64,000 nt of DNA from the NCBI RefSeq assembly GCF_963921235.1, contig NC_086108.1:76386001-76450000 (forward strand), written 5' to 3'. The translations under genes were made by a program, and so were the position numbers. Source of the stretch: Mobula hypostoma. Lineage: Eukaryota. The notes below the pieces were generated by a model. It was not told the origin of the DNA and ran no database searches. It saw nothing but the letters and a program-made list of their open reading frames with translations. This document shows positions 1-61,777 of this stretch, in pieces (within the stretch, counting starts at the first letter, position 1; each line of letters starts with the position of its first letter).

Positions 1-460
1 CTTATATTCCGTCTGGGTAGCCTCCAACCTGATGGCATGAACATTGACTTCTCTAACTTCCGCTAGGCCCCACCTCCCCCTCGCACCCCAGCTGTTACTC
101 CTTTTTATGCACACATTCTTTCTCTCACTCTCCTTTTTCTCCCTCTGTCCCTCTGAATATACCTCTTGCCCATCCTCTGGGTCAACCTCCCCCCCCCGTC
201 TTTCTCCCTAGGCCTCCTGTCCCATGATCCTCTCATATCCCCTTTTGCCTATCACCTGTCCAGCTCTCGGCTCTATCCCTCCCCCTCCTGTCTTCTCCTA
301 TCATTTTGCATCTCCCCCTCCCCCTCCAGCTTTCAAATCCCTTACTCACTCTTCCTTCAGTTAGTCCTGACGAAGGGTCTCGGCCTGAAACGTCGACTGC
401 ACCTCTTCCTATAGATGCTGCTTGGCCTGCTGCGTTCACCAGCAACTTTGATGTATGTTG
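1..460 (+). mobile_element. Penelope-like element 3' end (GIY-YIG C-terminus, pyrimidine-rich UTR, pseudo-LTR with hammerhead); runs off the window start
   Basis: 1-66 reads LIFRLGSLQPDGMNIDFSNFR*, the same C-terminus as the PLE ORFs at 17762-18157 and 42410-42676. Near-identical in reverse complement to 42019-42480. Confidence 0.9.
363..398 (+). ncRNA. Minimal type I hammerhead ribozyme motif in PLE terminal repeat, intact core
   Basis: AGTC-CTGACGA-AGG(gtctcgg)CCT-GAAAC-GTC-GACT: helix I AGUC/GACU, core CUGACGA, 3-bp helix II, GAAA, palindromic ACGU helix III, GUC cleavage triplet at 392-394. Confidence 0.85.
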
Positions 461-3201: not shown

Positions 3202-6081
3202 ATTGGATAAACAGAGAGTAAGAGGTGGAGAGATTCTTAAATGCATCTATTTTAATGCTAAGAGCATTGTAAGAAAGGTGGATGAGCTTAGAGCATGGAT
3301 TGATACCTGGAAATATGATGTTCTAGCTATTAGTGAAACATGGTTGCAGGAGGGGTGTGATTGTCAACTAAATATTCCAGGATTTCGGTGCTTCAGGTGT
3401 GATAGAATAGGAGGGGCAAGACGGGGAGGTGTTGCATTGCTTGTCAGAGAAAATATAACAGCGGTGCTCTGGCCGGATAGATTACTGGACTCGTCCAGGG
3501 AGGCTTTTGGGTGGAATTGAGGAATGGGAAAGGTGTAGTGACGCTTATAGGGGTGTATTATAGACCACCTAATGGGGACCGAGAACTGGAGGAGCAAATT
3601 TGTAAGGAGATAGCAGATATTTGTGGTAAGCACAAGGTTGTAATTGTGGGAGATTTTAACTTTCCACACAAAGACCGGGAAGCCCATTCTGTAAAAGGGC
3701 TGGATGGTTTGGAGTTGGTCAAATGTGTGTAAGATAGTTTTTTGCAGCAATACATAGAAGTACCAACTAGAGAAGGGGCAGTGTTGGATCTCCTGTTAGG
3801 GAATGAGATAGGGCAGGTGACGGAGGTATGTGTTGGGTAGCACTTCGGGTCCAGTGATCACAATGCTATTAGTTTCAATATAATTATGGAGAAGGATAGG
3901 ACTGGACCCAGGGCTGAGATTTATGATTGGAAAAAGGCTAACTTTGAGGAGATGCGAAAGGATTTAGAAGGAGTGGATTGGGACAATTTGTTTTATGGGA
4001 AGGATGTAATAGAGAAATGGAGGTCATTTAAAGGTGAAATTTTGAGGGTACAGGATCTTTATGTTCCTGTTAGGTTGAAAGGACAGGTTAAGAGTTTGAG
4101 AGAGCCATGGTTTTCAAGGGATAGAGGAAACTTGGTTCAGAAAAAGAGAGAGATCTACAATAAATATAGGCAGCATGGAGTTAATGAGGTGCTCGAGGAA
4201 TATAAAGAATGTAAAAAGAATCTTAAGAAAGAAATTAGAAAAGCTGAAAGAAGATACAAGGCTGCTTTAGCAAGTAAGGTGAAAATAAATCCAAAGGGTT
4301 TCTACAGTTATATTAATAGCAAAAGGATAGTGAGGGATAAAATTGGTCCCTTAGAGAATCAGAGTGGATGGCTATGTGCGGAGCCAAAAGTGATGGGGGA
4401 GATTTTGAACAATTTCTTTCCTTCAGTATTCACTAAGGAGAAGGACATCGAATTGTGTAAGGTAAAGGAAACAAGAAGGGTAGTTATGGAAAGTATGATG
4501 ATTAGAGAAGAGGAAGTACTGGCGCTTTTAAGGAATATAAAAGTGGATAAGTCTCCGGGTCCGGACAAGATATTCCCTAGGACCTTGAGGGAAGTTAGTG
4601 TGGAAATAGCAGGGGCTCTGACAGAAATATTTCAAATGTCATTAGAAACGGGGATGGTGCCAGAGGATTGGCATATTGCTCAAGTGGTCCCATTGTTTAA
4701 AAAGGGTTCTACAAGTAAACCTAGCAATTATCGGCCTGTGAGTGGTGTGTAAATTGATGGAAAGTATTCTTAGAGATGGTATATATAATTATCTGGATAG
4801 ACAGGGTCTGATTAGGAACAGTCAACATGGATTTGTGCATGGAAGGTCATGTTTGACAAATCTTATTGAATTTTTTGATGAGGTTACTAGGAAAGTTGAC
4901 GAGGGTAAAGCAGTGGATGTTGTCTATATGGACTTCAGTAAGGCTTTTGACAAGGTTCCACATGGAAGGTTAGTTAGGAAGGTTCAATCGTTAGGCATTA
5001 ATATTGAAGTAGTAAAATGGATTCAACAGTGGCTGGATGGGAGACGCCAGAGAGTAGTGGTGGATAACTGTGTGTCAGATTGGAGGACGGTGTGTAGCGG
5101 TGTGCCTCAGGGAACTGTACTGGGTCCAATGTTGTTTGTCATATATATTAATGATCTGGATGATGGGGTGGTAAATTGGATTAGTAAGTATGCAGATGAT
5201 ATTAAGGTAGGTGGCGTTGTGGATAATGAAATAGGTTTGCAAAGCTTGCAGAGAGATTTAGGCCAGTTAGAAGAGTGGGCTGAAAGATGGCAGATGGAGT
5301 TTAATGCTGAAAAATGTGAGGTGCTACATTTTGGTAGGACTAATCAAAATAGGACATACATGGTAAATGGTAGGGCACTGAAGAATGCTGTAGAACAGAG
5401 GGATCTGGGAATAATGGTGCATAGTTCCCTGAAGGTGGAATCTCATGTGGATAAGCTGGTGAAGAAAGCTTTTGGTATGCTGGCCTTTATAAATCAGAGC
5501 ATTGAGTATAGGAGTTGGGATGTAATGTTGAAATTGTATAGGGCATTGGTAAGGCCAAATTTGGAGTATTGTGTACAGTTCTGGTCACCGAATTATAGGA
5601 AAGATGTCAATAAAATTGAGAGAGTACAGAGGAGATTTACTAAAATGTTGCTGGGGTTTCATCTCCTAAGTTACAGAGAAAGGTTGAACAAGTTAGGTCT
5701 TTATTCTTTGGAGCGTAGAAGGTTGAGGGGGCACTTGATAGAAGTGTTTGAAATTATGAGGGGGATTGATAGAGTTGACGTGGATAGGCTTTTTCCATTG
5801 AGAATGGGTTGAGAGTTAAAGGGCAAAAGTTTAGGGGTAACATGAGGGGGAACTTCTTTACTCAAAGAGTGGTAGCTGTGTGGAACGAGCTTCCAGCAGA
5901 AGTGGTTGAGGCAGGTTCGATGTTGTCGTTTAAAGTTAAATTGGATAGATATATGGACAGGAAAGGAATGGAGGTTTATGGGCCGAGTGCAGGTCGGTGG
6001 GACCAGGTGAGAGTAAGAGTTCAGCACGGACTAGAAGGGCCAAGATGGCCAGTTTCCATGCTGTAATTGTTATATGGTTAT
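3202..6081 (+). mobile_element. CR1 LINE, 5'-truncated, near-complete but disrupted ORF2 (APE endonuclease + RT)
   Basis: CIYFNAKSI, ISETW, GDFN, SDH, KSPGPD, NYRPVS, DFSKAFDKV, GVPQG, KYADD and LVRPNLEYCVQFWSP spread over ORFs 3203-6066 with stops and frameshifts; short tandem tail; possible 6-bp TSD ATGAAT at 3196-3201 and 6082-6087. Confidence 0.95.
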
Positions 6082-10717: not shown

Positions 10718-10868
10718 AATTCTGTAGAATTTAGTCCTGACGAAGGGTCTCGGCCCAAAACGTCAACTGTACCTCTTCCTAGAGATGCTGCCTGGCCTGC
10801 TGCGTTCACCAGCAACCTTGATGTGTGTTGCTTGAATTTCCAGCATCTGCAGAATTCCTCGTGTTTGT
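10718..10868 (+). mobile_element. Mini PLE insertion consisting almost only of the hammerhead-containing terminal repeat
   Basis: 10731-10867 matches the PLE end; 14-bp TSD ATAATGAAGCAGTG at 10704-10717 and 10869-10882. Confidence 0.85.
10733..10769 (+). ncRNA. Hammerhead ribozyme motif with core mutation (GAAA to AAAA), probably inactive
   Basis: AGTC-CTGACGA-AGGGTCTCGGCCC-AAAAC-GTC-AACTG; G12 is A at 10757, a CpG-type transition. Confidence 0.7.
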
Positions 10869-11643
10869 ATAATGAAGCAGTGTTTCTGGATTCATGGACT
10901 GTTTCAAAATCTGATGGCAGAGGGGAAGAAGCCCCTCTTCGGCTTTTTACTGAATCATTGAGTATGGGCCTTCAGACTCCTGCACCTCCTCCTCAATGGC
11001 AATCACAAGAATACAGCAGTGAAGGACCTTAATGGTTGGTCCAAGTTCAAAGTTCAAACTAAATTTATTATCAAAATACATATATTTAACATATACCTCC
11101 TTGAGATGAATGATCTTGCAGGCATTTACAGGAATAAAGAAATGCGATAGAATTTTATGAAAAACTTTCATAAACAGATGAAGACTGAAAAATTACCAAT
11201 ATGCAATAGAAAGCAAACTGTGCAAACAAAAATAATACTGAGAAGATGAGCTGAAGAGAATCCTCAGAAAATTGTAGAACCAGTTCAGAGTAGTGGTAAA
11301 TGAAGTTATCCACACCAATTCAGGAGCCTGATGGTTGTAGGTAATACTGTTCCTGAACTTGATGGTGGGAGACTTAAGACTTCTGTACCTCTTGCTTGAT
11401 GGTAGTAGTGAGAATAAGGCATGGCCTGGATGGTAGGGGTCTTTGATGATGGATGCAGCTTTTTTGTGACAGCGCTCCATGTAATCTATGATTGGAGGGC
11501 TCTGCTTGTGATGGACTGGGCCATCACTTTATGTAGGCTTTTCCATTCCTGAATATACATCATCTGATGGATGTTGTTTTCTTGAGGCACAGCCTCTCGA
11601 AGATGTCCTCGGCAGGCAATTAATTGATGAAACCAAAAGTTTT

Positions 11644-14600
11644 CACAAGATCACAAGACAAAGGAGCAGAAGTAGGCCATTCGGCCCATCGAGTCTGCTC
11701 TGCAGCTCCCCCATGAGCTAAACTATTCACCCATCTAGTTCCAATTTCCGGCTTTTTCCCCATATCCCTTGATACCCTGACGAATTAGATACCTGTCAAT
11801 CTCCTCCTTAAACACCCTCAATGATCGGGCCTCCACAGCTGTATGTGGCAACGAATTCCACAAATCCACGACCCTCTGGCTAAAAAAATTTCTCCTCATC
11901 TCTGTTTTAACTGGGTACCCTCTAATTCTAGGACTGTGGCCTCTTGTCCTGGACTCACCCACCAAGAGAAACAGCCTTTCCACATCTACTCTGTCCAACC
12001 CTTTCAACATTTGAAATGTTTCTATGAGATCCCCTCTCATTCTTCTATACTCTAATGAATACAATCCAAGAGCTGACAAACGCTCCTCATATGTTAGCCC
12101 CTGCATTCCAGGAATCATCCTCGTAAATTTTCTTTGAACTCTCTCCAACATCAGTACATCCTTTCTAAGATAGGGGGCCCAAAACTGCACACAGTGTTCC
12201 AAATGAGGTCTCACTAATGCCCCATAGAGCCTCATCAACACCTCCTTACTCTTATACACTATTCCTCTTGAAATGAATGCCAACATAGCATTCGCTTTCC
12301 TTACCACCAATCCAACTTGGTGGTTAACCTTTAGGGTATCCTGCACGAGGACCCCCAAGTCCCTTTGCACTTCCGATTTTTGAATTTTCTCCCCATCTAA
12401 ATAATAATCTGCCCTATTATTCCTTCTTCCGAAATGTACAACCGTACATTTGTCAACGTTGTAACTCATCTGCCATTTCTTTGCCCACTCTCCTAAACTG
12501 ACTCAAGTCTCTCTGCAACCTTTCCGTTTCTTCAACATTTCCTGCTCCTCCACCTATCTTGGTGTCATCCGCAAACTTAGCCACAAAACCATTTAATCCA
12601 TAATCCAAAGCATCGATATACATCGTAAAAAAAAGCGGCCCCAACACCAACCCCTGCGGAACACCACTAGTAACCGGCAACCAATCAGAATAAGATCCCT
12701 TTATTCCCACCCTTTGCTTTCTGCCTATCAGCCAATGCTCCAACCATTTCAATATCTTTCCTATAATTCCATGGGCTCTCATCTTATTAAGCAGCCTCAT
12801 ATGCGGCACCTTATTGAAGGCCTTTTGAAAATCCAAATACACAACATCCACAGCCTCTCCCTTGTCAATCTTATTCGAGATTACCTCAAAAAATTCCAAT
12901 AGGTTGGTGGGACAGGATCTTCCCTTCATGAAACCATGCTAGCTTCGGCCTATCTTGTCATGCACCTCGAGGTATTTCATAACCTCGTCCTTGAGGATTG
13001 ACTCCAATATCTTTCCAACTACCGATGTCAGACTAATAGGTCTGTAATTTTCTTTTTGCTGCCTCCTTCCTTTCTTAAATAACGGAACTACATTTGTGAC
13101 CTTCCAGTCGTCCGGAACCATGCCAGAGTCCATTGATTCCTGGAAGATCATTTCCAATGCTTCCACAATCTCCAAAGCCACCTCCTTCCGAACCCTTGGG
13201 TGCACCTCATCCGGACTGGGAGACTTATCTATTCTTAGTCCACTTAGTTTCCCAAGCACTTTCTCTCTAGTAATCTTGACTGTACCTAATTCTATTCCCT
13301 GATACCTCTGGCTATCAGGTATATGTCTCATGTCTTCCACTGTGAAGACTGATGCAAAATACTCATTCAGTTCCTCTGCCACCTCTTTGTTATCCATTAT
13401 AATTTCTCCAGCATCATTTTCAATCGGTCCCGTATCTACCCTTCTCACTCTTTTACTCTTTATATATTTAAAAAAACTCTTAGTATCCTTTCTTATGTTA
13501 ATCGCCAACTTCCTTTCATAATTCATCTTTTCTTTCCTAATGACTTTCTTAGTTTCCTTCGGTAAGTTTTTAAAAAGTCTTCCAGTCCTCATTTTTCCCA
13601 CTAATTTTTGTTTCCTTGTACGCCGTTTCTTTTGCTTTTATTTTTGCCTTAACCTCTCTCATTAGCTACATTTGTGCCATTTTTCCATTCATGATTTTCT
13701 TTTTTTCTTGGAATATATTTTTCCTGCATTTTCCTTATTTCATGAAGGAACTTCAGCCAATTCTGCTCTGCCATCCCTCCATTTAGCTTACTTTTCCAAT
13801 CGACTTGGGCCAGTTCCTCTCTCATACCACTGTAATTTCCCCTATTCCACTGAAATATCGATATACCTGATACCAGCTTCTCCTCTTCAGATTTGAAACT
13901 GAACTCAATCACATTATGATCACTACTTCCAAGGGGTTCCTTTACCTCCAGCTCCCCAATCGCCTCAGGTTTGGTACACAGCATCCAATCCAAAACAGCC
14001 AGTCCCCTGGTGGGCTTCTGGACAAGCTGCTTCAAAAAGCCATCCTGTAGGCATTCTACAAACTCCCTCTCCTGAGATCCATTACCTTCCTGACTTTCCC
14101 ACTCCACTTTCATATTAAAATCCCCCATAATTATCTTGACATTTTCCTTCTGACACGCTTTTTCTATTTCTAGCTGCAAATTGTAGTCCACATCCCGGCT
14201 GCTGTTTGGAGGCCTGTATATAACTTTTTACCTTTGCCATTTCTTAATTCTACCCATAAGGATTCTACCTCTTCTGATCCTATGTCCCTTCTTTCTATTG
14301 ATTTGATACCGTTACTTACCATCAGGGCCACGCCACCCCCTTTACCTACCTTCCTATCTTTCCTATACACTGTGTATCCTTGGATATTCAGCTCCCAATC
14401 ACATCCATCATTTAGCCATGACTCGGTGATGGCCACAATGTCATATCTTTTAACCTGCAGCTGTGCAGCAAGGTCATCCACTTTATTTCTAATGCTGCGT
14501 GCATTTAAGTACAGTACATTTAGATCAGTATCTGTTGCTGATTTTGCTATATTTCTATTTTGCAGCAAATTATCCTGTATATTCACCGGCCTGTCCTTCC
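11644..14600 (-). mobile_element. CR1 LINE, 5'-truncated, near-complete disrupted ORF2
   Basis: VLYLNARSIRNK, ITESW, GDFN, SSDHN, NYRPISLTS, DFQKAF, GVPQG, KFADD and LVRPHLEHCVQFW across ORFs 14586-11735; tail cacaagatcacaaga. Confidence 0.95.
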
Positions 14601-15719
14601 TTATAGTTCTGGTTATTCAACTGTTCTGGGAATGGGTGGAATGGGGAGAGCAGAGATAGGATGTGGGACCGAGTACAAGATTAATATATGATTAAAGCAA
14701 TAATAGATAAAAATTAACATATAATCAAGCAATATTATACCAAAGCTGTCGAAACCATATTTGATATGTTATTTAAGTCATTTTAGGTGCAGCAATTTCC
14801 TACAGGGATTAACATGTCATATTCACAACTGTGGGTAACACAAAGCTAGCTTTACAAGATTCTCCGCTGGGTAGTCATTTCTATCCTATTGGTTCTCTTT
14901 AGAAATATGGTTCAATGTTTGCCAATGCAAAATCTTGTTTGGTTTCATTCCTAAAAGTTGTAGTTGAGATTATATAGAAAAAAACAGGAGTTGGCCAATC
15001 ACCCCTTTAAGCCTGTTGTAGCATAGCTGACTTTTTATCTAAAAATCTGTAACATCCTCATATCCATATATTATTTTGTAGGCTTCTATGAGATCACCTC
15101 GCATTCCTCCAGAAGAGGATATGCCCGTCTAGTTAATCCCATCTCAAAGGACAAACTCACTATCCCAGGACTGAATTTCCAATCAACCTTCACAGCACTC
15201 GTACCAACACAAGCACGCTGGTGGCTCCACTTTCGTATGAATTTGAAGAAATCTGGTATGTCACCAAAGCCTTGCAAATTTCTATAAATGTATGGTGGAG
15301 AGCATTGGGACTGGTTGCATCACAGGTTCAAAGTCCAAAATAAATTTGTTATCAAATTTCATATATATTACCATATACCACCTTGAGATTCATTTTCTTA
15401 CAGGAATTTATAGGAAAAAAAATACAATACAAATTACAAAAACTATATATTAACAAAGACTGACAAACAACCAAGGCGCAAAAAATACAAAACTGTAAAA
15501 AATACTGAAAACATGAGTTGTAGAGTCATTGAAAGTGCGTCTGTAGGCCATAGTATCACTTTAGAGTAGCGGTGATCAAAATTATCCATGCCAGTTAAGA
15601 AGCCAGATAACTGGTCCTGAAACTGGTGGTGTAAGACCTAAGGATCTGTATCTCCTGCCCAATTACAGTAGTGAAAAGAGGGCATGGCCTAGATGGGGGC
15701 AAGCTTTGATGATGGATGC

Positions 15720-16537
15720 AAACACAAGGAAATCTGCAGATGCTGGAAATTCAAGCAACACACGCAAAATACTAGTGGAACGCAGCAGGCCAGACAGCAT
15801 CCATAGGAAGAAGCACAGTTGACGTTTCAGGCCGAGACCCTTCATCAGGACTAACTGAAAGAAGAGATAGTAAGAGTTTTGAAAGTGGAAGGGGGAGGGG
15901 GAGATCCAAAATGATAGGAGAAGACAGGAGGGGGAGGGATGAAGCTAAGAGCTGAACAGTTGATTGGCAAAAGGGATACAAGGCTGGAGAAGGGAGAGGA
16001 TCACGGGACAGGAGGCCTAGGGAGAAAGAAAAGCCGGGGGGGGGGAGCACCAGAGGAAGATGGAGAGCAGGCAAGGAGTTATTGTGAGAGGGACAGAGAG
16101 AGAGAAAAAAAGAAAAAAATAATAAACATACAAATAAATAAATAAATAAATAAATAAATAAGGGATGGGTTAAGAATGGGAGGAGGGGCATTAACGGAAG
16201 TTAGAGAAGTCAATGTTCATGCCATCAAGTTGGAGGCTACCCAGATGGAATATAAGGTGTTGTTCCTCCAACCTGAGTGTGACTTCATCTTGACAGTAGA
16301 GGAGGCCATGGATAGACATATCAGAATGGGAATGGGATGTGGAATTAAAATGTGTGGCCAGTGGGAGATCCTGCTTACTCTGGCGGACAGAGCGTAGGTG
16401 TTCAGCAAAGCGGTCTCCCAGTCTGCATCAGGTCTCACCAATATATAGAAGGCCGCACCGGGAGCATCGGACGCAGAATATCACACCAGCTGACTCACAG
16501 GTGAAGTGTTGCCTCACCTGAAAGGACTGTCTGGAGC
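15720..16537 (-). mobile_element. Penelope-like element 3' fragment (GIY-YIG region, UTR with (TTTA)n, pseudo-LTR)
   Basis: Colinear with the other PLE copies; 13-bp TSD TGATGATGGATGC at 15707-15719 and 16538-16550. Confidence 0.9.
15816..15857 (-). ncRNA. Hammerhead ribozyme motif, intact core
   Basis: Minus strand CAGTTAGTC-CTGATGA-AGG(gtctcgg)CCT-GAAAC-GTC-AACTG; one mismatch at the first helix I pair. Confidence 0.75.
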
Positions 16538-17479: not shown

Positions 17480-19431
17480 CACTCACAACATGCTGGAGGA
17501 ACTCAGCAGGTCCGGCATCATCCGTGGAAACGATCAGTCAACGTTTCGGGCCAGAACCCTTCGTCAGGACTGAAGAGGGAAGGTGCAGAGGCCCTATAAA
17601 GTAGGTGGGGATTGGTGGGAAGGAGAAGGCTGGCAGGTTCCAGGTGAAAAACCAGTAAGGAGAAAGATAAAGGGGTGGGGGAGGGGAAGCAGGGAGGTGA
17701 TAGGCAAGAAAGGTGAAGAAGGAATAGGGGAAAACACAATGGGTAGTAGAAGGAGGCGGAATCATGAGGGAGGTGATAGGCAGCTGCGGGAGGGGGCAGA
17801 ATGAAATAGAGATAGGGAAAAGGGAGGGGGAGGGAACCACCAGAAGTTGAAGAATTCTATGTTCATACCAAGGGGCTGGAGACTACCTAGACGGTATATG
17901 AGGTGTTGCTCCTCCAACCTGAGTTTAGCCTCATCATGGCAGTAGAGGAGGCCATGTATGGACATATCCGAATGGGAATGGGAAGCAGAGTTGAAGTGGG
18001 TGGCTACTGAGAGATCCTGTCTGTTGTGGCAGACGGAGCGGAGGTACGGAGCAGAGGTGCTCAACGTAGTGGTCCCCCAATCTGCGTCGGGTTTCACAGA
18101 TGTAGAGGAGGCCGCGCTATGAGCACCGGATGCAATAGATGACCCCAAAAGACTCACAAGTGAAGTGTTGCTTCACCTGGAGGGACTGTTTGGGCCCTGA
18201 ATAGTGGCAAGAGAGGAGGGGTAGGGACAGTTGTAGCACTTAACGTTTACAGGAATAAGTGCTGGGTGGGAGATCCGTGGGGAGGGATGTGTGGATCAGG
18301 GAGTCGTGGAGGGACCAATCCCTGTGGAAAGCGGAGAGGGGTGGAGAGGGAAAGATGTGCTTAGTGGTGGGGTCCTGTTAAAGGTGGCAGAAGTTGCGGA
18401 GGATAATGTGCTGGATCCGGAGGCTGGTGGGGTGGTAGGTGAGGACAAGGGGAACTCTGTCCCTGTTGTGGTGGCGGGAGGATGGGGTGAGGGCCGAAGT
18501 GCGGGAAATGGAGGAAATGCGGGTGAGGGCATCATTGATGACGGCAGAAGGGAAACCACGATCCTTAAAGAAAGAGGACATTTGAGATGTCCTGGAACGG
18601 AAAGCCTCATCCTGGGAGCAGATGCGGCAGAGACGGAGGAACTGGGAATAGGGAATGGCATTTTTGCATGTGGCAGGGTGGGAAGAGGTATAGTCAAGGT
18701 AGTTATGAGAGTCAGTAGGCTTGTAGAAGATGTCAGTGGACAGTCTGTCTCCAGAGATGGAGACCGAGAGATCGAGAAAGGGGAGAGAAGTGTCCAAGAT
18801 AGACCAAGTGAATTTGAGGGCCGTGTGGAAGTTTGAAGTAAAGTCGATGAAATTGACAAGCTCAGCATGGGTGCAGGAAGCAGAACCAATGTAGTTGTCA
18901 ATGTACCAAAGGAAAAGTTGGGGAGCAGTACCAGAATAGGTTCAGAGCACAGACCGTTCCACATAACCAATGAAGAGGCAGGCATAGTTGGGGCCCATGC
19001 GAGTTCCCATAGCTACACCCTTAGTCTGAAGAAAGTGGGAAGAGCCAAAAGAGAAGTTATTAAGTGTGAGTACCAGTTCTGCCAACCGGAGGAGGGTAGT
19101 GGTGGTGGGGAACTGGTGAGGTCTATAGTCCAGAAAGTAGCGGAGGGTTTTGAGGCTTTCTTGATGGGGAATGGAGGTGTATAAGGATTGGACATCCATA
19201 GTGAAAATGAAGCGGTTGGGACTGGGGAACTGGAAGTTATTGAAGAGGTGGAGGGCATGGGATGTATCCCGGATGTAGGTGGGGAGGGACTGAACTATGG
19301 GTGACAAAATGGAGTCCAGGTAGGCAGATACAAGTTCGGTGGGACAGGAGCAGGCAGAAACTATGGGTCTACTGGGACAGTCAGGCTTGTGGATCTTGGG
19401 GAGGAGGTAAAACCGAGCGGTATAGTGTGTG
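17480..19431 (-). mobile_element. Penelope-like element (probably Neptune clade), 5'-truncated: RT + GIY-YIG endonuclease + pseudo-LTR
   Basis: FYLLPKIHK, RPIVS, FTMDVQSLYTSIP, GVAMGTRMGP, YID, LPFLD, YKPTDSHNYL, Cys-rich linker, VIYCIRC..GLLYI and HFNS..HS; 9-bp TSD GAAAAGTGT at 17471-17479 and 19432-19440. Confidence 0.93.
17535..17572 (-). ncRNA. Hammerhead ribozyme motif, intact core, 5-bp helix I
   Basis: Minus strand CAGTC-CTGACGA-A-GGG(ttctgg)CCC-GAAAC-GTT-GACTG; AACGUU palindrome; GUU triplet. Confidence 0.85.
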
Positions 19432-20470: not shown

Positions 20471-20522
20471 AACAACAGGAATTCTGCAGATGCTGGAAAT
20501 TCAAGCAAGCAACTTTGATGTA
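20471..20522. mobile_element. 52-bp PLE terminal fragment with internal inversion
   Basis: The reverse complement of the PLE terminus is followed by a forward piece gcaactttgatgta; 16-bp TSD TAAACCTTGAAACCAG at 20455-20470 and 20523-20538. Confidence 0.85.
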
Positions 20523-33952: not shown

Positions 33953-36900
33953 AATATAAGGCCGTAAGACCATAAGTTATAGGAGCAGAATTATGCCATT
34001 TAGCCCATTAAGTATTGTCCACCATTTCATCATGGCTGATCCAATTTTCCTCTCAGCCCTAATCTCCTTCCTTCTCCCAGTATCCCTTCAAGTCCTGACC
34101 AATCAAGAATCTATCAACCTCTGCCTTAAATATACTTACAGACTTGGTCTTCACAGCTGCCTGTGGCAATGAATTCCACAGATTCACCACTCTCTGGCTG
34201 AAGAAATTCTTCCTCACCTCCATTCTAAAAGGACAACTGTCCCGAAGCTGTGTCCTCTGGTCTTAGACTCTCCCACCATATGGAACATCCTCTCCACATC
34301 CACTCTATCAAGGCCTTTCACTATCCCATAGGTTTCAATGAGGTCAAACCGTCATTCTTCTGAATTCTAGTGAATAGAGGCCCAGAGTCATCAAACACTC
34401 TTCATATGACAAGCCATTCAAGTTCTGGAATGATTGTCATGAACCTCCTTTGAACCCTCTCCAGTTTCAGCATATCCTTTCTAAGATAAGGGGCCCAAAA
34501 CTGCCCACAATATTCCAAGTGAGGTCTCACTTGTGCATTATAAAGTCTCAACATTATATCCTTGCTTTTATATGTTAGTCCTCTTGAAATGAATGCTAAC
34601 ATGGCATTGCCTTCCTCCCCACAGACTCAACCCACCAACTAACCTTTGGGGAATCCTGTACGAGGACGCGCAAGAACCTTTGCACTTCAGTTTCTGTACT
34701 TTCTGTCCATTTAGGAAGTAGTCAACCCTTTTATTTCTTCTACTGAAGTACATGACCATACACTTCCCAACACTGTATTCCATCTGCCACTTCATTGCCC
34801 ATTCTTCTCATCTGTCTAGGTACTTCTGTAGCCTCTCTACTTCTTCACAACTACCTGCTCCTCCATCTCTTCATATTGTCTGCAAACCTTGCAACAAGGC
34901 CATCAATTCCATCATCCAAATCACTGACATATATATAAAAAAAGAATCAGACCACTATGGAACACCACTAGTCACTGACAGCCAACCAGGAAAGGATGCC
35001 TTTATTTCCTTTTTTTGCCTTCTGCAATCTGTTTTATCCATGCTAGAATCTTACTTGTAATACCATGGGCTCATAGCTTGTTAAGCAGCCTCATGTATGG
35101 CACCTTGTCACAGACCTTCTGAAAATCCAAGTACTTAACGTCAACCAATTCTCCTTTGCCTATCCTGCTTGGTATTCCTTCAAAGAATTCCAACAGATTT
35201 GTCAGGCAAGATTTTCCCTTGAAAACCATGCTGACTACGGCTCTTTTTTATCAGGTGCCTCCAAGTATCCTGAGACCTCATCCTTAATAATTGACTCTAA
35301 CATCTTCCCAACCACTGAGGTCAGACTAACTGGCCCATATTTTCCTTTCTTCTGCCTCTCTCCCTTCCTGAAGAGTGGAGTGGCATTTTCAATTTTCCCA
35401 TCTTTTGGAACTATTCCAGAAACTAGTGATTCTTGAGAGATTAATACTAATGCCTCCACAATCTTTCCAGCCATGTCTTTCAGAACCCTGTGGTGTACAC
35501 CATCTAGTCCAGAAGACTTAACTACTCTCAGATTCAAGAACCTGCTCTCTAGTTATGGTAACTTCACACATTCCATGTCCCCTGACACCTGGAACTTCCA
35601 CAATACTGCTAGTGTCTTCCACAGTGAAGATCGATGCAAAATATTGTTTGTCCGCCATTTCATTGTCTCTCATTACTACCTATGCAGCATTGTTTTCCAG
35701 CGGTCCGATATCCACTCTTGCCTCTTTTTTACACTTTATGTATTTGAAGAAACTTTTGGTATCCTCTTTAATATTACTCGGGTTACTTAATTTAATATTC
35801 CAGCTTTACATTCTAAATGACTTTTTTAGTTGCCTTCTGAAGGCCTTTTCAAAGCTTCCCAATCCTTTTAATTCCCACTAATTTTTGCTCTATTACATGC
35901 CTTCACTTTGGCATTTATGTTGGCTTTGGCTTCTCTTGTTAGCCATGGTTGTGTCATCTCGCTTTTAGAATACTTCTTCTTTGGAATGTTTATTTCCTGT
36001 GCCTTCTGAATTGCTTCCAGAAATTCCAGCCATTACTGCTCTGCCATCATCCCTGCCAGTCTTCTTTTCCAATCAATTTTGGCCAACTCCTCTCTCATGC
36101 CTCTGTAATTCTCTTTACTCCACTGTAATACTGCTACATCTGACTTTAGCTGCTCCTTCTCAAATTTCTAGGTGAATTTGATCATATTATGATCACTATG
36201 ATCTCGAATCAATGCTGGTTCATTACACCACACCCAATCCAGAATAGCTGATCCCCGAGTGGGCTCAACCACAAGCTGCTCTAAAAAAGCCATCTCATAG
36301 GTACTCTAGATTCCCCCTCCAGATCCCACACCAACCTGATTTTCCCAATCTACCTGCATATTGAAATCTCCCATGACTATTGTAACACTGCCCTTTTGGC
36401 AATCATTTTCTATCTTCTGTTGTAAATTGTAGACCACATCGTTACTACAGTTTGGGGTCTGTATACAACTCCCATCAGGATCTTTTACCCTTGCAGTTTG
36501 TTAGCTCTATCAACAATGATTCAACACTTTCCGACCCTATGTCACCTCTTTTTAATGACTTGACTTCATTTTTTACCAACAAGGCTGCTCCCTCTGCCTA
36601 GCTGTCTGTTCTTTCAATATAAAGTGTATCCTTGGACATTAAGCTCAGCTATAATCTTCTTTCAGCCATGGTTCAGTAATGCTTATAACATCATACATGC
36701 CAATCTGCAACTGTGCCACAAGTTCATCTATCTTATTCGATATACTGTGCACATTCAACTATAACACCTTCAGTCCAGTATTCATCCTTTTCGATTTTGT
36801 GTCTTTTATATTGCAATTCATCCTGTTGACTGCAATTTTGCCCTATCAATAGCCTCTCTTCACTACACATTGCCTCTGTTTGTAAACCAGCTACCTCATC

Positions 36901-41305: not shown

Positions 41306-42018
41306 AATCTTGTAAAAAAAATAAGGTTGAGCCACTTATATAAATTGTCAGACTAGGAAATGAATATCCATAAACTTTGTCTGAAACACAAATGAAATAA
41401 AATGTTGAGAATGAATTCTCCAAGCAAATTTCCTGCAACTTCAGAACTTTTGCTTCCCAGCTTTCTTATATGGGTTTCAGGGGGCATTCCTATCTGTATC
41501 CTATATTAATGCAGAGGAGAGCAAAGGTGCACCAAAAAAAAAACACTACTAACGTTCAGAACCTTTCACCAAACTATAAAGCAGGCCACAGCAAAAAGGC
41601 CTCTTCTTAGGCAGTCCCTTGGAATTGAAGAAGACTTTGCTGCAACTTTGTTTTTGTGGGTTCTTAAGTTATTCATGGGACTATTACGGGAAACAAAGAT
41701 TGTATCACAGCATTGGTGGAGATCCAGATTATGTCCCAGTTCTTTTTTATTACTTAGTATAGTGAATAAACAAGAAATTGATAAGTATAATAAATCCTCT
41801 TTCCAAAACGTTATGAGTGAATTAGTTCCTGGGTTCTTTGATTCAAGAATGTACTTACTTAACTATGTATGATGCAAATATTCTATTTCAAAATAAAACT
41901 TTGAGAGCATAAGCAATCTGAGGTTGCATTTCTATTTGCTTATGTTCCATGTTACCAGATACTATGATTAATAGAGAAATGTGCAAAGATGGGTGCTAAA
42001 ACAAACCTAATTTTCTCT

Positions 42019-43172
42019 CAACATACATCAAAGTTGCTGGTGAACACAGCAGGCCAAGCAGCATCTATAGGAAGAGGCGCAGTCGACGTTTCAGGCCGAG
42101 ACCCTTCGTCTGGACTAACTGAAGGAAGAGTGAGTAAGGGATTTGAAAGCTGGAGGGGGAGGGGGAGATGCAAAATGATAGGAGAAGACAGGAGGGGGAG
42201 GGATAGAGCCGAGAGCTGGACAGGTGATAGGCAAAAGGGTATACGAGAGGATCATGGGACAGGAGGTCTGGGAAGAAAGACAAGGGGGGGGTGACCCAGA
42301 GGATGGGCAAGAGGTATATTCAGAGGGACAGAGGGAGAAAAAGGAGAGTGAGAGAAAGAATGTGTGCATAAAAATGAGTAACAGATGGGGTACGAGGGGG
42401 AGGTGGGGCCTAGCGGAAGTTAGAGAAGTCGATGTTCATGCCATCAGGTTGGAGGCTGCCCAGACGGAATATAAGGTGTTGTTCCTCCAACCCGAGTGTG
42501 GCTTCATCTTTACAGTAGAGGAGGCCGTGGATAGACATGTCAGAATGGGAATGGGATGTGGAATTAAAATGTCTTGGCCACTGGGAGATCCTGCTTTCTC
42601 TGGCGGACAGAGCGTAGATGTTCAGCAAAGCAGTCTCCCAGTCTGCGTCGGGTCTCACCAATATATAAAAGGCCACATCGGGAGCACCGGACGCAGTATA
42701 TCACCCCAGTCGACTCACAGGTGAAGTGATGCCTCACCTGGAAGGACTGTTTGGGGCCCTGAATGGTGGTAAGGGAGGAAGTGTAAGGGCATGTGTAGCA
42801 CTTGTTCCGCTTACACGGATAAGTGCCAGGAGGGAGATCAGTGGGGAGGGATGGGGGGGACGAATGGACAAGGGAGTTGTGTAGGGAGCGATCCCTGTGG
42901 AATGCAGAGAGAGGGGGGGAGGGAAAGATGTGCTTAGTGGTGGGATCCCGTTGGAGGTGGCGGAAGTTACGGAGAATAATATGTTGGACCCGGAGGCTGG
43001 TAGGTAAGGACCAGGGGAACCCTATTCCTAGTGGGGTGGTGGGAGGATGGAGTGAGAGCAGATGTACGTGAAATGGGGGAGATGCGTTTAAGAGCAGAGT
43101 TGATAGTGGAGGAAGGGAAGCCCCTTTCTTTAAAAAATGAAGACATCTCCCTCGTCCTAGAATGAAAAGCCT
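42019..43172 (-). mobile_element. Penelope-like element 3' fragment, same subfamily as 1-460
   Basis: ORFs 42967-43206 (FFKERGFP..RVPLVLTY) and 42410-42676 (HFNSTSHSH..EEQHLIFRLGSLQPDGMNIDF). Confidence 0.92.
42080..42117 (-). ncRNA. Hammerhead ribozyme motif with core mutation (CUGA to CAGA)
   Basis: Minus strand AGTC-CAGACGA-AGG(gtctcgg)CCT-GAAAC-GTC-GACTG; substitution at 42111. Confidence 0.7.
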
Positions 43173-43464
43173 CTCTCACTTGACGTGGAATTGCTGGAGT
43201 TAACATGAAGAATTTCTTTTTATATTAATATATCTATTTAAGTGTGTTTAAATAAGTCTCCTTTGAAGCCAGATGTGTAATTAATCTGGAAATTAGATAG
43301 GGGTAAAAAAAAGTCTTACCTTATACCAACTGATGTATAAGTTACCTGGCCCCGCAAAACATCTTAGCACCTCCTTACCCGCATTAACTGTAATAATTAA
43401 TTAACTGCATTTGCTGTAATAATTTTTTACCACTGTTTTCAGTCATGGGTGTTCTAAAATTTCA

Positions 43465-45184: not shown

Positions 45185-45807
45185 TGTAATGCCCTGGTTC
45201 ATTTTTTTTTTGTTACGCTGTTCTGTCTTTCATTTTGTGCTGTTTTGTGCGAGCTACTTGTTTTCCTCTTACGTTTGGGATACTGTTGAGATAAGAGATA
45301 GGAGAATTGTGTGCCATCCAATTAGGATGGTCGGATTAAGGGGACCTTTCTCTGGTGAGGGACACTAAGGTTGGGCTTGAGGCTTTCATTAGAGAGAGAT
45401 GAAAAAAGAAGACGCCGGAGAGAAGAGGTCATGGTATTCAACCCGCAGAGGAGCTGTGATTCGATGAAGCCCGGGGTGATCGAAGGAGGATCGAAGACAA
45501 GGAAACCGTGAGCTCCAACTTTTGCACATTAAACTGTTTCATTAAAAAGGGTCCTTTTCTTTTTTTTGTTGTTGTTTCTTTACTCACCCTTAGTCAAATT
45601 AAGAATTATAAAGCTAAATAAAACTTTTAATTGTATGTGTGTACTGTTTGTTATTTCATGGTACTCATTTGTAACAGGGTAACAAATCACACAGCATCCA
45701 CACAAACAGGTGGTTTTAGGGTGGCTCGCACCTCAATCTCACCCGTTTAGCCAGGCTGGAGATCGTCTTCCCTAGACTTACGCAGCTGATGAAACCGGAG
45801 TGTTTCA
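45185..45807 (+). repeat. 5' LTR (TG...CA)
   Basis: Starts TGTAATGCCC and ends TGTTTCA, 3 nt before the PBS; the first ~290 bp recur at 51748-52014. Confidence 0.88.
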
Positions 45808-45934: not shown

Positions 45935-47351
45935 ATGGATGCTGCAGGGGTGGAGCGGTGGTGCAAATCCATGAGGTTACTGGTAACGAATGCATGTGTG
46001 TCGAGTAGGGTAGACATTCGTATTCCTGATGAATTGTTAATTCAAACTTTAAGTACTGTTAAAGCCATAGGAACAGTTCTGATTGTGGAGCGGAAGTTTG
46101 ATATAATGGCGGGCAAAGATTTTGTTTTAGTCCAGACAACTGCTGACATTTGGCAGTGGAATTGCCTGGTACTACTGGGGCCCCAAGAGTGGGGAGGGGG
46201 GGTGCGTGGGATGCCCATGCTTTCCGGAAGGAGGAAGAGAGTGTAGGAGAGCAGGCCGAATCGCAAGCCAAGTCTCCCGTAGCTGGGGGTGGAGATTTCA
46301 AAGCCAGGTTGCTCTCGTTTCTGCGGAGCGAAGGGAAGGAGTGGTCTGATTTGCAATGTCTAATGAGTCCCCCAGTGAAGAGTGGGACTTCTGAGTTTGT
46401 ATCCACCCTGACCTCCCTTGCAAATAAATGACCCAGTGCCCAGGCAGAGGGTCCTAGTAATTGAAAACTGAGAATATTCTCTCGGGTGAAGTAAGGAGCA
46501 GACCTCTCAGTTGCTAAATGAGTGGCAGTACTCTAATGACGTAAAAAGACAGCATTGATTGAGAGTTTGAGAGGTCAGGCTGGTGACATAGTGAGAGCCG
46601 TAAAGACACAGAACCCCTTTGCTACCTCTGCAGCTTACATGCAAGCACCAGAAAAGGTGTTTGATGTGATGGGAAGCCCAGTGGAGCTCACGCTGGGGTT
46701 TCAGAACATGTGTCAGGAGAAGGGTGAGAAGCCTTCGGCCTACATTTTTCAGCTAGAGAGGCAGCTAAATTGCTTGTGGCGTAGAGCGACCATTCAGACA
46801 GCTGAGGTGGATCAGTTAAGAATGGACAAAATAGCGAAAGTTGCCCAGTCCCAGGACCTGAGCACTTGGGGTCTCCGACTGTCTTGTAAGACACACCCCC
46901 TCCCTCGTTTGTTGAGCTGATCAGGGAAGTACGAGAGGAGGAGACTGCATCGGATGCACGGGGTGGGGGGGGGGGCCTCCATCAGCAGGGTACGGTCCTC
47001 AGTAGCAGCCTCCTGCATTGAAGTGACCACGGATAGCCCACCCCAGGGAGTGGTAAAGGAGGTTGTGACAGAGTTGAGAACTGAGATGCCCCGATTGTTA
47101 TCAGCAGGTGTGGCTTTCCTGTACAATGGAACTGAATGGGAGCCAGCCTCCCTAAGGGGATGGACTATGCAGAGGGCTGCTAGTGGCCGGGGTCCCATCA
47201 GAAGGGGGGCGGTCGTTATTGTCTGTTATAACTATGATGAAGAGGGACACTTCAGGCGGGAGTGTGAATGACGGGAAACCCCTCGGAGAGTGAGCCCCTG
47301 GGTACCTAAACAGAGAGAGAGACATTGGGAAACTTAGAAGAGACCCAGTGA
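45935..47351 (+). pseudogene. Gypsy gag, PNMA/Ma-like, disrupted
   Basis: MDAAGVERWC..., LRIFS, LIESLRG.A, Q.KGEKPSAYIFQLE and the degenerate CCHC knuckle CYNYDEEGHFRREC. Confidence 0.75.
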
Positions 47352-47399
47352 GGGAACAGCCCAGCAATATATCAAGGGATATCCTAAAGCAAAAAACTC

Positions 47400-51747: not shown

Positions 51748-52014
51748 GTAATGCCCTAGTTCATATTTTTTATTGTCATACTGTTCTGTCTTTCATTTTG
51801 TGTTGTTCTGTGCGAGCTGCTTGTTTTCCTCTTATGTGTGGGTTACTGTTGAAGATAAGAGATAGGAGAATTATCTGCCATCCAATTAGAATGGTCAGAT
51901 CAAGAGGAGGTTTCTCTGGTGAGGGACACTAAGGTTGGGCTTGAGGCTTTTGTTAGAGAAAGGTGAAGAGAAACGAGGTCGTAGGATTCAACCAGGAGTG
52001 GGGCCGTGATTCAA
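51748..52014 (+). repeat. 3' LTR, partial
   Basis: gtaatgccctagttcat... aligns to the 5' LTR start and ends abruptly at a CR1 tail. Confidence 0.88.
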
Positions 52015-53729: not shown

Positions 53730-54780
53730 ATGCAAGTCCTGAAGTTACAAACCATGATGGAACCCAATTCTGCTGCTGCTGCTGGCAAACACTGCCCAGA
53801 AGAACCTACTTTGAACAGCCAGTTCTGCGCAGGTCTACCCCATTTAGCGTGGCAGCAGTGCCGAACAATACTGAAGTAGATCCTCAGCGTAAAAGTTCAA
53901 ACTTCTCCAGACTGCAGGAATTGTGGTAGTTACCACTACTAATATTGTCATGAATAGATAAATTAGGCTCTCACCAAAGGCTACCAATTAATACTGGTAG
54001 TTATGTCCTTAAGGATTTACCAATTTAGGCAAAGCTGCCAAGCCACTGATGGGGCAATGAAATCTTTCAGCTAGTATATGTTGTGCTCTCACTCATGTCA
54101 GTGGTCTTACAAGATTTGTTCAGTATGGAGGTATGCTAAATTATTACTAAAGGGTAGATGGTAGGTAGTAATAAGCTCAAGAATTCCTTCACACAACAGA
54201 TTCTGCAGAATCTAGAAATTAACGGTAATAATACAAAATGTTGCAGGAACTTAGCAGGTTAGAGAGAAGCCTTCTTCCCCTTTCCTTTTCAGTCCTGATG
54301 AAGAGTCTCAGCCCGAAACGTTAGATGTTTATTCCTTTCCAATAATGCTGCCTGACCCGATGAGCTCCACCAGCATTGTGTATGTGTTACAAGGTTCCCT
54401 TGCTGACATTTGCCCTGATAGCATGAGACTTCATGTGGCATGAGGTTAATATTAAGAACTTCAAAATCTACTTCTTCCTGCTTGCTTACCACTCTACAGC
54501 TTCCTCTTAAGCATGTGTTCCCCTGACTGGAAAGAACATAGCTAGGGATTGTGATGGAGGAGGCTTGGATGGTGGTTGTAAGACGTGCAAGCATGACAAT
54601 GTCAGGCTGGTGCCTGGTAAATCTGGATGACAAGAACCTGAATTTTGACACTAATGCCCATATGCACATGAGATGGACTTCGCAAGAATTTGCAGTATTT
54701 TTTCTGTATCCATATGTCATGGTTGATGTCAAATAGTTCATCCAGTTTAATCCTCATTGCATTTTGACAGAGAATTGTTT
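53730..54780 (-). mobile_element. Old LINE APE-endonuclease fragment interrupted by a PLE remnant
   Basis: ORF 54289-54741 HQPDIVML...ITIPSYVLS...EVLNIN..PHEVS..Q resembles a CR1/L2-group endonuclease. Confidence 0.55.
54190..54390. mobile_element. PLE terminal-repeat remnant with inverted arrangement and a hammerhead motif at 54290-54326
   Basis: A reverse-oriented PLE end (54190-54260) is followed by forward CAGTC-CTGATGA-AGAGTCTCAGCCC-GAAAC-GTT; helices weakened. Confidence 0.7.
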
Positions 54781-55016
54781 TAAATATAAATACTTGGCTA
54801 TTTTAGAGGAAAGTGAAGAGTCAGCCACATTGTTTTGGTCCTGGATTTACGTAAAAAACTAAACTGGGACAGAAAACTGTTATCAACACCTTCAAAAACA
54901 AGAGCTCCAAAGACACATAATGTTCTAAGCAAAGAAAAACACCTCAACTTCATTGTAAATGGATAAGCCTTTAGTTTAAAAAATATAACCTCTAGCTTAA
55001 GATTCCCCCATAATTT

Positions 55017-60330: not shown

Positions 60331-61049
60331 CAGATATCCCACCCTGCAAAAACTCATTTCAGGGAGGTAGCACCATCAATTTGCAGGAGACTTCGGGGAG
60401 AGGTGGGGTGTCTTAGCAGCTGGCCAGCTAGTTTAAATAACGTTAGCTATGCTAATGAATGAATGACACCTGTTAAACTCACCTCAACATGTCTTTTACA
60501 GTCTTAACCCACCCTGGGCAATAGAAAAGTCACTGTTGCAAACAGTGCAGCGAACAACACTGTCATTATTTTTGACCCCTATTAGGCAGGGGTACACTTT
60601 AGCGTAGTCTGGGGTGACGTACATTTTATTTTTTTGGAACGCTGCCACTCTGACTTTTTTTGGAACTCTCTCGCTCTTGCTCTCGCTCTCTATCGCACGC
60701 GCTCTGTCATTCGCGGTCGTTCTCACTCGCGCTTGCTTTCTCACTCTTGCTCTCGCTGCTCGCGCTCGCTTTCTCACTCTTGCTCTCTCTCTTGCACTTG
60801 CTTTCTCACTCTCGGTTGCTCTCGCTCGCGCTCTCGCTTTCTCTCTTGTGGTCGCTCTCACTCGCGCTCGCTCTCTCGCGCTTGCTTTCTTGCTCTTGTG
60901 CTTGCTCTCTCGCTTTCTCTCGTGCGTTCCCTCACGCTTGCTCTCAAAAAATTCAATTTCCGGGACATTGTATATAATTTGCGGGCATCAGGAAGCCACT
61001 ATTAATATGCGGGAGACTCCCGGAACTTCCGGGAGAGGTGGGATGTCTG
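60331..61049 (-). mobile_element. Non-autonomous hAT-type DNA transposon retaining a BED-like zinc-finger exon
   Basis: 13-bp TIRs CAGATATCCCACC and GGTGGGATGTCTG (12/13 match); 6-bp TSD GTGGTG at 60325-60330 and 61050-61055; minus strand VRCTVCNSDFSIAQGG..DCKRHVE followed by GTGAGT. Confidence 0.8.
60667..60945 (+). repeat. Degenerate (CTCGCT)n/(CT)n low-complexity tract inside the DNA transposon
   Basis: Visible repetition of ctcgct/cttgct/ctct units. Confidence 0.9.
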
Positions 61050-61330
61050 GTGGTGGGAGTCAGTTCAGAAGAGCAATGTCTGGTCACAGATCAAAAATAA
61101 AAACTGTGGTTAAATATTGCTCCTAACTTAGTTGGCTGACAGACCAGCCAACAACTTGGAATGACATTCAGAAATTTTCAACTACCATCAATCAAATGCT
61201 TAAACTTTAAAGGATAAAAACACATCCTTAAAAACTCAGATTATGTAAATTACCCCAAAACTTAGCTTTGTTCCTCTCTATTCAAGAATAGGAAGGCATT
61301 TTTCTTGAACTATGCCTAACCTTTCACAAA

Positions 61331-61777
61331 GCTGAAGAAGGATCTCAGACCTGAACCAAACTGTTAGCTGGTTCCTATTCCACATATCCTGACCCACTGA
61401 GCAATTTCAGCATTTTCTGTTTTAATTTCAGATTTCTAGTGCCTTAGTTCAATGGTAAACTGAGTTTCATTTACTGATGAATTTACTGCCACAATTCTTT
61501 CAGGAACACCATCGATGAAGAAGTGATCCTCTGCTCTCAAGCAGGATTTCTATCTGTCCCTTTTACTCTGTTCACGTTTGAGCGTCTCTCTTTCCCTTCC
61601 TTTTCCCAGTTCTGATGAAGGTACCTACAGCTAAATCAGGAAATTCTGTGAAGGTTCTCAGCCCAAAATGTCAACTGTATATTCCTCTCCATAGATGCCG
61701 CCTGGCCTGCTGAGTTTCTCCACCATTTTGTGTGTGTGCTCTGGATTTCCAGAATATGCAGAATCTCTTGTGTGTCT
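61331..61777 (+). mobile_element. Two or three degenerate PLE terminal-repeat remnants with eroded hammerhead motifs
   Basis: CTGAAGAaggatctcagacctgaac (61332), cagttCTGATGAagg (61607), and gaaggttctcagcccaaaatgtcaactg followed by a PLE tail (61650-61777). Confidence 0.6.

What the first reader, a model, noticed from the sequence alone, without database searches (positions are those of the whole stretch)
363..398. Family of minimal hammerhead ribozymes carried by Penelope terminal repeats
Seen in sequence: the PLE 3' ends carry the same short motif at a fixed position. It comprises helix I (AGUC/GACU), CUGANGA, a 3-bp helix II, GAAA, and an ACGU palindrome running into a GUH triplet. Copies are at 363 (+), 10733 (+), 15816 (-), 17535 (-), 42080 (-) and 54290 (+), with eroded ones near 61332-61680. 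Established knowledge: PLE pseudo-LTRs in many metazoans contain minimal type I hammerheads whose helix III is too short to fold as a monomer and which are thought to cleave as dimers through the palindrome. Inference: about six copies in 64 kb implies a very large genomic population of self-cleaving RNA motifs, some of which would lie in host pre-mRNAs. The class is known; I cannot tell whether this lineage's family is described.
Basis: partly seen in the sequence, partly recalled or inferred. Interest (0 to 1): 0.75.

Follow-up and report, generated by a model that had tools for sequence, protein, structure and literature searches.

The report
Penelope-element hammerheads in cartilaginous fish
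The motif is a real copy of the tiny hammerhead-ribozyme pattern already known from Penelope-like jumping genes, present with an intact core about 100,000 times in what is likely a shark or ray genome, where it likely cuts only the element's own RNA (as a pair, likely with the element's protein) while scattered copies such as this one are likely inert passengers.

Summary
Observation confirmed. Window 363-398 is a minimal type I hammerhead in the pseudo-LTR of a Penelope-like element (PLE) with a Neptune-type linker. Full-length pLTR-ORF-pLTR copies encode RT plus GIY-YIG. The genome holds 100,378 intact-core matches (control 70) and an estimated 0.68 million remnants. Distant relatives keep the core with different paired helices (17 of 80 loci).

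Corrections: only 1 of the 6 named copies is fully intact. Helix II fits better as a bulged A plus 4 bp.

The host pre-mRNA inference is unsupported. Copies decay at CpGs, and the core is no more conserved than a flanking block. 41 of 53 young copies run through the cut site. Intronic copies spanning the motif are 13 sense: 13 antisense; young copies are 1:6, p=0.125. A lizard PLE hammerhead cuts only with the element's protein (PMC11167929).

The class is known (PMC4209133), and the scan has noted it before (69 notes in at least 20 genomes, including this one). What this adds: the very high copy number and an amplified A6C core variant (4,066 copies). New member of a known kind.

The parts
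363..398 (+). Fully intact minimal type I hammerhead. Helix I 363-366/395-398, core CUGACGA 367-373, extra A 374, helix II 375-378/383-386, GAAA 387-390, ACGU palindrome 390-393, C17 at 394 (predicted cut after 394)
1..460 (+). 3' end of a young 5'-truncated PLE copy (ORF end, stop at 64-66, 3' UTR/pLTR, no tail). It continues 1.4 kb upstream of the window (L072:8588-10000, 98.6% identical to full-length L062)
10731..10870 (+). Solo 140-nt stub that starts at the 5' edge of the hammerhead and includes the tail; core broken (G12A), G1.1A
15716..16537 (-). 5'-truncated PLE copy with tail; hammerhead at 15817-15852 has an intact core and a G1.1A mismatch closing helix I
17490..19415 (-). Older-subfamily PLE copy with RT and GIY-YIG remnants; hammerhead at 17536-17571 has an intact core and a GUU triplet
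42018..43175 (-). Young 5'-truncated PLE copy (96% identical to 1-461); hammerhead at 42081-42116 has core U4A
54276..54401 (+). Old pLTR stub; core letters present, helices I and II mismatched
61607..61775 (+). Eroded pLTR stub with an insertion inside the hammerhead
61325..61420 (+). Heavily eroded pLTR-like remnant, visible in alignment but below the profile threshold
   Evidence: not found
20471..20508 (-). Isolated 38-nt tail piece of the same element

Best explanation
The motif is the minimal hammerhead carried in the terminal repeat of a very abundant Penelope-like retroelement; it likely cuts only the element's own multi-copy RNA, as a dimer through its ACGU palindrome and likely with help from the element's protein, while dispersed copies such as 363-398 are likely inert passengers copied from uncut RNA. 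Shown: the motif lies about 300 nt after the stop and about 165 nt before the start codon of a 1,016-aa RT/GIY-YIG ORF, so a full-length element has two copies about 3.5 kb apart on one strand. Copies end at two places, about 67 and 104 nt past the cut. Inferred: these two ends are reverse-transcription start sites. Reverse transcription runs back through an uncut (or re-ligated) hammerhead and usually stops early, often at the 5' edge of helix I, which is likely the RNA's 5' end. A lone copy is predicted to fold into an inactive rod (core GACG paired with CGUC) and then decays at its CpGs. Inferred role in the element: trimming tandem precursor RNA to unit length, possibly for circularisation.
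For: Layout pLTR-ORF-pLTR in at least 3 of 21 long-ORF loci (L051, L061, L062), and inverted 5' copies in at least 9 of 21. RVT_1 E=2.6e-5 and GIY-YIG E=2.7e-4, both below Pfam cut-offs. Best named relative: a bamboo-shark protein at 71% identity. Sense-strand minimal hammerheads in 17 of 80 loci of distant relatives (30-57% aa identity in the best segment), with different helix letters; 20 shuffles gave 0-1 hits. 3' ends are bimodal at +61..76 and +98..111, matching the optional 30-40 bp tail bounded by RT start sites in the anole element (PMC11167929). 5' starts of 53 young copies: 41 lie upstream of the cut, 18 at -46..-29, and only 3 within 5 nt of the cut. The monomer folds into a rod (ensemble frequency 0.51), and the ACGU duplex is worth only -1.7 kcal/mol. 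Decay is neutral and CpG-driven. Published: a single min-HHR showed no cleavage and dimers/trimers little (PMC4209133). The anole PLE hammerhead cuts only with the element's protein, is not needed for insertion in vitro, and no RNA-seq reads began or ended at its cut (PMC11167929).
Against: No cleavage could be tested here. There is no covariation within this genome: helix letters are the same in all 5 clusters apart from one G-C/G-U change, and the 8 window copies do no better than shuffles. A downstream block is as conserved as the core. A subfamily with an A6C core amplified anyway. Young intronic copies were 1 sense: 6 antisense and intact cores 0:4; neither is significant. Some 5' starts at -40 are inflated by fold-back arms, and a stricter re-count gave 10 of 29 at -37..-29. 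The protein-assisted step is carried over from a Poseidon-clade element, not shown for this clade.
Confidence: 0.75

Rival explanations
1. Intact dispersed copies are active in vivo (pairing with other copies, or switched on by the element's protein) and cut host pre-mRNAs, so selection removes sense-oriented young copies from introns.
For: About 60,000 copies with core plus helix I intact (24 in 1.4 Mb). Intact cores in introns 0 sense: 4 antisense (p=0.125) and young copies 1:6 (p=0.125). A first runs test on C1 gave p=0.013.
Against: All motif-spanning intronic copies are 13:13, and all copies 19:17. The runs signal vanished once fold-back partners were removed properly (p=0.23). The core decays like its flank. 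The monomer folds into a rod. Earlier scan notes report intact sense copies in several introns of this genome (not checked by me).
Confidence: 0.12
2. In this lineage the motif is a vestigial hammerhead, kept because it overlaps the element's promoter, transcript start or protein-binding RNA, and cleavage is no longer needed.
For: A6C core in 4,066 copies, three times the transition A6G (1,285) and five times A6T (793), with shared flanks, so likely an amplified subfamily. A6C strongly lowers Mg2+-driven cleavage in other hammerheads (PMC7151607, Results). The youngest subfamily has G10.1-U11.1 instead of G-C. The downstream block is equally conserved. Naiad PLEs thrive without canonical hammerheads (PMC8557442, passages).
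Against: All 5 clusters keep the full core, both helices and the palindrome while neighbouring spacers differ. Distant relatives keep the core with re-paired helices. A6C is only about 4% of cores and is a natural variant that stays active with Mn2+ (PMC7151607).
Confidence: 0.11
3. The resemblance to a hammerhead is chance within an ordinary repeat.
For: Rfam finds nothing. The loose core pattern is at chance level in the window. The folding z-score is only -0.37.
Against: The motif sits at a fixed position in the pLTR and matches the published consensus feature by feature. The same core with different paired helices occurs in 17 of 80 related loci, against 0-1 in shuffles.
Confidence: 0.02

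Closest known systems
Minimal hammerheads (min-HHR) in pLTRs of metazoan PLEs (Cervera & de la Pena 2014, PMC4209133; read: main text parts 1-2 of 4 and supplement file 2 parts 1-2 of 3)
   Same: Type I, core CUGANGA + extra nucleotide + G...C helix II + GAAA-C-G-U-H, no helix III, short helix I, located in pLTRs, mostly solo truncated copies, inverted neighbours. The Acropora Neptune motif in Fig. S3 has the same anatomy (4-bp helix II, GAAACGUC).
   Different: Copy number: about 100,000 intact cores here, against about 9,000 (Xenopus) and 4,000 (coelacanth) there. No cartilaginous fish among the 56 motifs of Fig. S3. Low sequence diversity here (one helix set in all clusters). G-U at 10.1-11.1 in the youngest subfamily, and an amplified A6C variant.
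PAc (Poseidon of Anolis carolinensis) protein-assisted hammerhead (Frangieh et al. 2024, PMC11167929; read: parts 1-2 of 4)
   Same: Vertebrate PLE with a pLTR hammerhead, two RT start sites that bound an optional 30-40 bp tail, and uncut RNA used as template.
   Different: Poseidon clade, with the ORF starting inside the hammerhead. Here the element has a Neptune/Nematis-type linker and the ATG lies about 135 nt past the cut. Protein dependence is untested here.
Dimer-cleaving PLE hammerheads (Lunse, Weinberg & Breaker, PMC5785218; not held; title and a summary seen in review PMC6765202 passages)
   Same: Shrunken stem III with a palindrome; cleavage as dimers.
   Different: I could not check whether shark or ray sequences are among its examples.
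Non-LTR retrozymes of animals (Li, Clavereau & Pollet 2026, 10.64898/2026.07.22.740005; read: parts 1-2 of 5 and passages; supplements not opened)
   Same: Type I hammerheads derived from PLE pLTRs; one chondrichthyan genome was sampled and had retrozymes.
   Different: Retrozymes are tandem non-coding arrays. These copies are dispersed truncated ends of an autonomous RT/EN element.

Membership tests
EN+ Penelope-like element | Single ORF with RT and C-terminal GIY-YIG | tested here: met
   1,016-aa ORF in L062; RVT_1 at 507-669 and GIY-YIG at 919-993, both below curated cut-offs; homologues carry PF00078 and PF01541
EN+ Penelope-like element | Pseudo-LTRs from partial tandems, inverted 5' copies, 5' truncation | tested here: met
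   At least 3 of 21 direct and at least 9 of 21 inverted among long-ORF loci; 41 of 50 adjacent pairs under 100 nt apart are divergent
EN+ Penelope-like element | Optional 30-40 bp tail | tested here: met
   3' ends cluster at +61..76 and +98..111
Neptune/Nematis clades | CX2-5CxxC linker between RT and EN | tested here: met
   C-X4-C-xx-C before the GIY-YIG motif in the L061-L065 translations; criterion from PMC8557442
Neptune clade specifically | RT phylogeny with named references | not tested
   No named Neptune or Nematis references were held; the label rests on the linker and on recalled distribution in vertebrates
min-HHR (Cervera 2014) | Core CUGANGA...GAAA and NUH, no helix III, palindromic 15.2-16.2 | tested here: met
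min-HHR (Cervera 2014) | Extra nucleotide between 9 and 10.1; G10.1-C11.1 pair; helix I of 3-5 bp | tested here: met
   Extra A in all 5 clusters; G-C in 4 clusters and G-U in the largest; helix I 4-5 bp
min-HHR (Cervera 2014) | Helices covary while the core stays fixed | tested here: met
   Across relatives: 17 of 80 loci, shuffles 0-1; pairing was part of the descriptor. Within this genome: no covariation
min-HHR (Cervera 2014) | Self-cleavage as a dimer or with protein | not testable with these tools
   Needs in vitro transcription or raw RNA-end data; only contigs were available
Rfam hammerhead families | Covariance-model match | tested here: not met
   No hammerhead match at E up to 10 in the window; likely because helix III is absent
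Non-LTR retrozyme | Head-to-tail non-coding repeats, each with a hammerhead | tested here: not met
   Copies are dispersed and attached to ORF sequence; only 5 of 50 close pairs are on the same strand

The most novel reading that the evidence does not exclude
The roughly 60,000-100,000 intact cores form a genome-wide set of conditional cut sites. They are silent alone but switched on in trans when the element's RT-endonuclease is expressed (for example in the germ line), cutting host pre-mRNAs and leaving young intact copies depleted on the sense strand of introns. The amplified A6C subfamily would then be a dampened or Mn2+-tuned version of the same switch.
Probability: 0.1. Interest if true: 0.65.

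Novelty: new member of a known kind. Interest (0 to 1): 0.24.

Why it matters
The class and its place in PLEs have been in print since 2014, so the finding is not surprising in kind. Its value is scale. One genome holds about ten times more intact cores than the richest genome in the founding paper, along with young full-length elements with open ORFs. That makes an open question testable with statistical power: whether PLE hammerheads matter in vivo, and whether dispersed copies cost the host anything. My searches of the held library found no description of this family in sharks or rays. The Lunse paper and the preprint's supplements could not be seen and may cover it.

Tried and rejected
Rfam scan of the window: no hammerhead. 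The loose core pattern in the window is at chance level.

RNA evidence: no RNA holder listed. The runs were only guessed to be RNA and are kept as contigs. Laying 4 of the 22 runs on L061 showed no pile of ends and no GT..AG joint among the 15 joints shown of 202. This is uninformative on expression, cleavage or splicing.

A 3' splice site at the pyrimidine tract plus AG before helix I (as in D. virilis Penelope) was considered. Truncated copies share no common upstream sequence, so it is unsupported.

Strand-run test on C1: p=0.013 at first, then p=0.23 after removing fold-back pairs with broken partners. Dropped.

Intron orientation sample: 30 exon-flank loci plus 9 deep-intron pieces, 183,570 bases, with gene strands inferred from EGF_CA and CUB exon hits.

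Covariation on the 8 window copies: no better than shuffles. Clustering left 100 of 194 rows in clusters of under 4, so old subfamilies are not resolved. Pfam missed the endonuclease in the broken window copies (1 of 5 frames hit RVT_1). Whether the window lies in a gene was not tested.

Full report
Observation. The 36 bases at 363-398 read AGUC CUGACGA A GGGU CUCG GCCU GAAA CGUC GACU, with C17 at 394. 17536-17571(-) keeps the core with a GUU triplet. 10733 has G12A, 42081-42116 has U4A, 15817-15852 has a mismatch closing helix I, and 54291 has broken helices. Helix II is better read as a bulged A plus four pairs (-6.0 against -4.6 kcal/mol). The loose core pattern is at chance level in the window, and Rfam finds no hammerhead.

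Scale. The genome (3.48 Gb) has 45,139 exact matches to a 34-place pattern, control 0. It has 100,378 matches to core-13 nt-GAAACGTY, control 70; the forward count was exactly 50,000, so a cap cannot be excluded. In 140 evenly spaced 10-kb pieces from 20 of the 200 contigs, a profile found 273 terminal-repeat remnants (0 in reversed sequence), 38 intact cores and 24 with helix I too. These extrapolate to about 0.68 million, 94,000 and 60,000. Matches to one young full-length copy cover 3.9% of the sample.

The carrier. The window copies lie behind broken RT and endonuclease frames. The copy at 1-460 continues 1.4 kb upstream at 98.6% identity to a full-length element. Of 21 long-ORF loci, at least 3 are pLTR-ORF-pLTR with two hammerheads about 3.5 kb apart, and at least 9 have an inverted copy at the 5' end. 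The 1,016-aa ORF matches RVT_1 and GIY-YIG, below the curated cut-offs, and has the C-X4-C-xx-C linker of the Neptune/Nematis clades. The best named relative is a bamboo-shark protein at 71% identity, so the host is likely a cartilaginous fish.

Is it a real hammerhead? Within this genome the helix letters do not covary, although all 5 clusters keep the core, both helices and the palindrome while adjacent spacers differ (94 of 194 rows clustered). Across distant relatives the answer is clear. 17 of 80 loci carry a sense-strand minimal hammerhead with the same core and different paired helices, against 0-1 hits in 20 shuffles; pairing was part of the descriptor. The anatomy matches the published consensus and the Acropora Neptune example (PMC4209133). 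None of that paper's 56 motifs is from a cartilaginous fish.

What dispersed copies do. Copies were ascertained by their downstream flank (239 hits, 233 aligned, 133 covering both parts). Of these, 17 of 45 young and 1 of 88 old copies are fully intact, and losses concentrate at CpGs (G8, G12, C15.2, G16.2, C17, G1.1). Non-CpG core positions decay like a downstream block: 1.5% vs 3.0%, p=0.13, and 8.1% vs 8.9%, p=0.58. 82 of 273 copies lie in divergent pairs under 100 nt apart, which would pair with each other in a host transcript. Two intact same-strand copies shared a 10-kb piece in 1 of 280 piece-strands. A lone copy is predicted to fold into a rod that pairs the core with the palindrome. 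In 183,570 intronic bases the copies were 19 sense: 17 antisense, and motif-spanning copies 13:13. Young copies were 1:6 and intact cores 0:4 (p=0.125 each), so a deficit of young sense copies is neither shown nor excluded. A strand-run signal (p=0.013) did not survive proper removal of fold-backs (p=0.23).

How copies were made. 3' ends fall in two groups about 37 nt apart. This matches the tail bounded by two RT start sites in the anole element (PMC11167929). Of 53 young copies, 41 begin upstream of the cut, 18 of them at -46..-29, and 3 within 5 nt of the cut. A stricter count gave 10 of 29 at -37..-29, and 16 contigs of one run have loose ends at the same edge (RNA or DNA unknown). The templates were therefore uncut or re-ligated. 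The stubs are likely run-off copies of an RNA that begins at the 5' edge of helix I, where the sequence resembles an initiator element (motif recalled, untested). Earlier scan notes suggested this test and reading.

Mechanism. Most likely (0.75) the hammerhead works in the element's own tandem RNA, as a dimer through a 4-bp ACGU helix (-1.7 kcal/mol) and likely with the element's protein, as shown for the anole element. The likely purpose is to trim or circularise the precursor. Dispersed copies are passengers. Cleavage, protein help and purpose are inferred, not shown. The rivals are active cutting of host RNA (0.12) and a vestigial fold kept for promoter or protein-binding reasons (0.11). 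The second gains some weight from an amplified A6C core variant: 4,066 copies against 1,285 A6G and 793 A6T, many with shared flanks. A6C shifts other hammerheads from Mg2+ to Mn2+ (PMC7151607, abstract and Results).

Verdict. New member of a known kind, interest 0.24. The class, location and dimer model are published (PMC4209133; passages of PMC6765202, PMC6155905 and PMC8557442). A 2026 preprint sampled one chondrichthyan, and the scan already holds 69 notes on the same thing. My paper searches found no description of this family in sharks or rays. The Lunse paper and the preprint's supplements were not seen and may bear on that.

Noticed in passing
genome-wide; examples L213-L224, L199, L202: Amplified subfamily with core variant A6C (CUGCNGA): 4,066 copies, more than A6G (1,285) or A6T (793); many share a T-rich upstream flank.
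   Followed up: partly
window 412-435 and all copies: A block 18-41 nt past the cut is as conserved across subfamilies as the hammerhead (121,069 exact pattern matches). It is partly complementary to the tail and is a candidate protein-binding or RT-positioning element. The monomer fold is not better than shuffles.
   Followed up: partly
window 340-366: Pyrimidine tract plus CAG/TAG directly before helix I, resembling both a 3' splice site and an initiator element (motifs recalled). 5' ends of copies pile up here.
   Followed up: partly
L064:2019-8320: Two long copies head to head, 99.9% identical over 3,068 bp with long open frames: a very recent inverted insertion.
   Followed up: no
window 46500-50200: Broken frames that look like gag, RT, RNase H and integrase of a Gypsy-type LTR retrotransposon; 45186-45462 and 51748-52012 are 82% alike and may be its LTRs (label recalled, not tested).
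   Followed up: no
window 3841-5809, 11647-14616, 33966-36781, 54967-56562, 62890-64000: Several CR1-like LINE remnants, 65-70% alike (label recalled, not tested).
   Followed up: no
window 60499-61000: CT-rich degenerate repeat inside a frame that looks like a DNA-transposon fragment (label recalled).
   Followed up: no
L311, L319, L320, L323, L329, L331, L341: Related elements whose hammerheads have a longer palindrome at helix III (2-nt insert) instead of the zero-length form.
   Followed up: no
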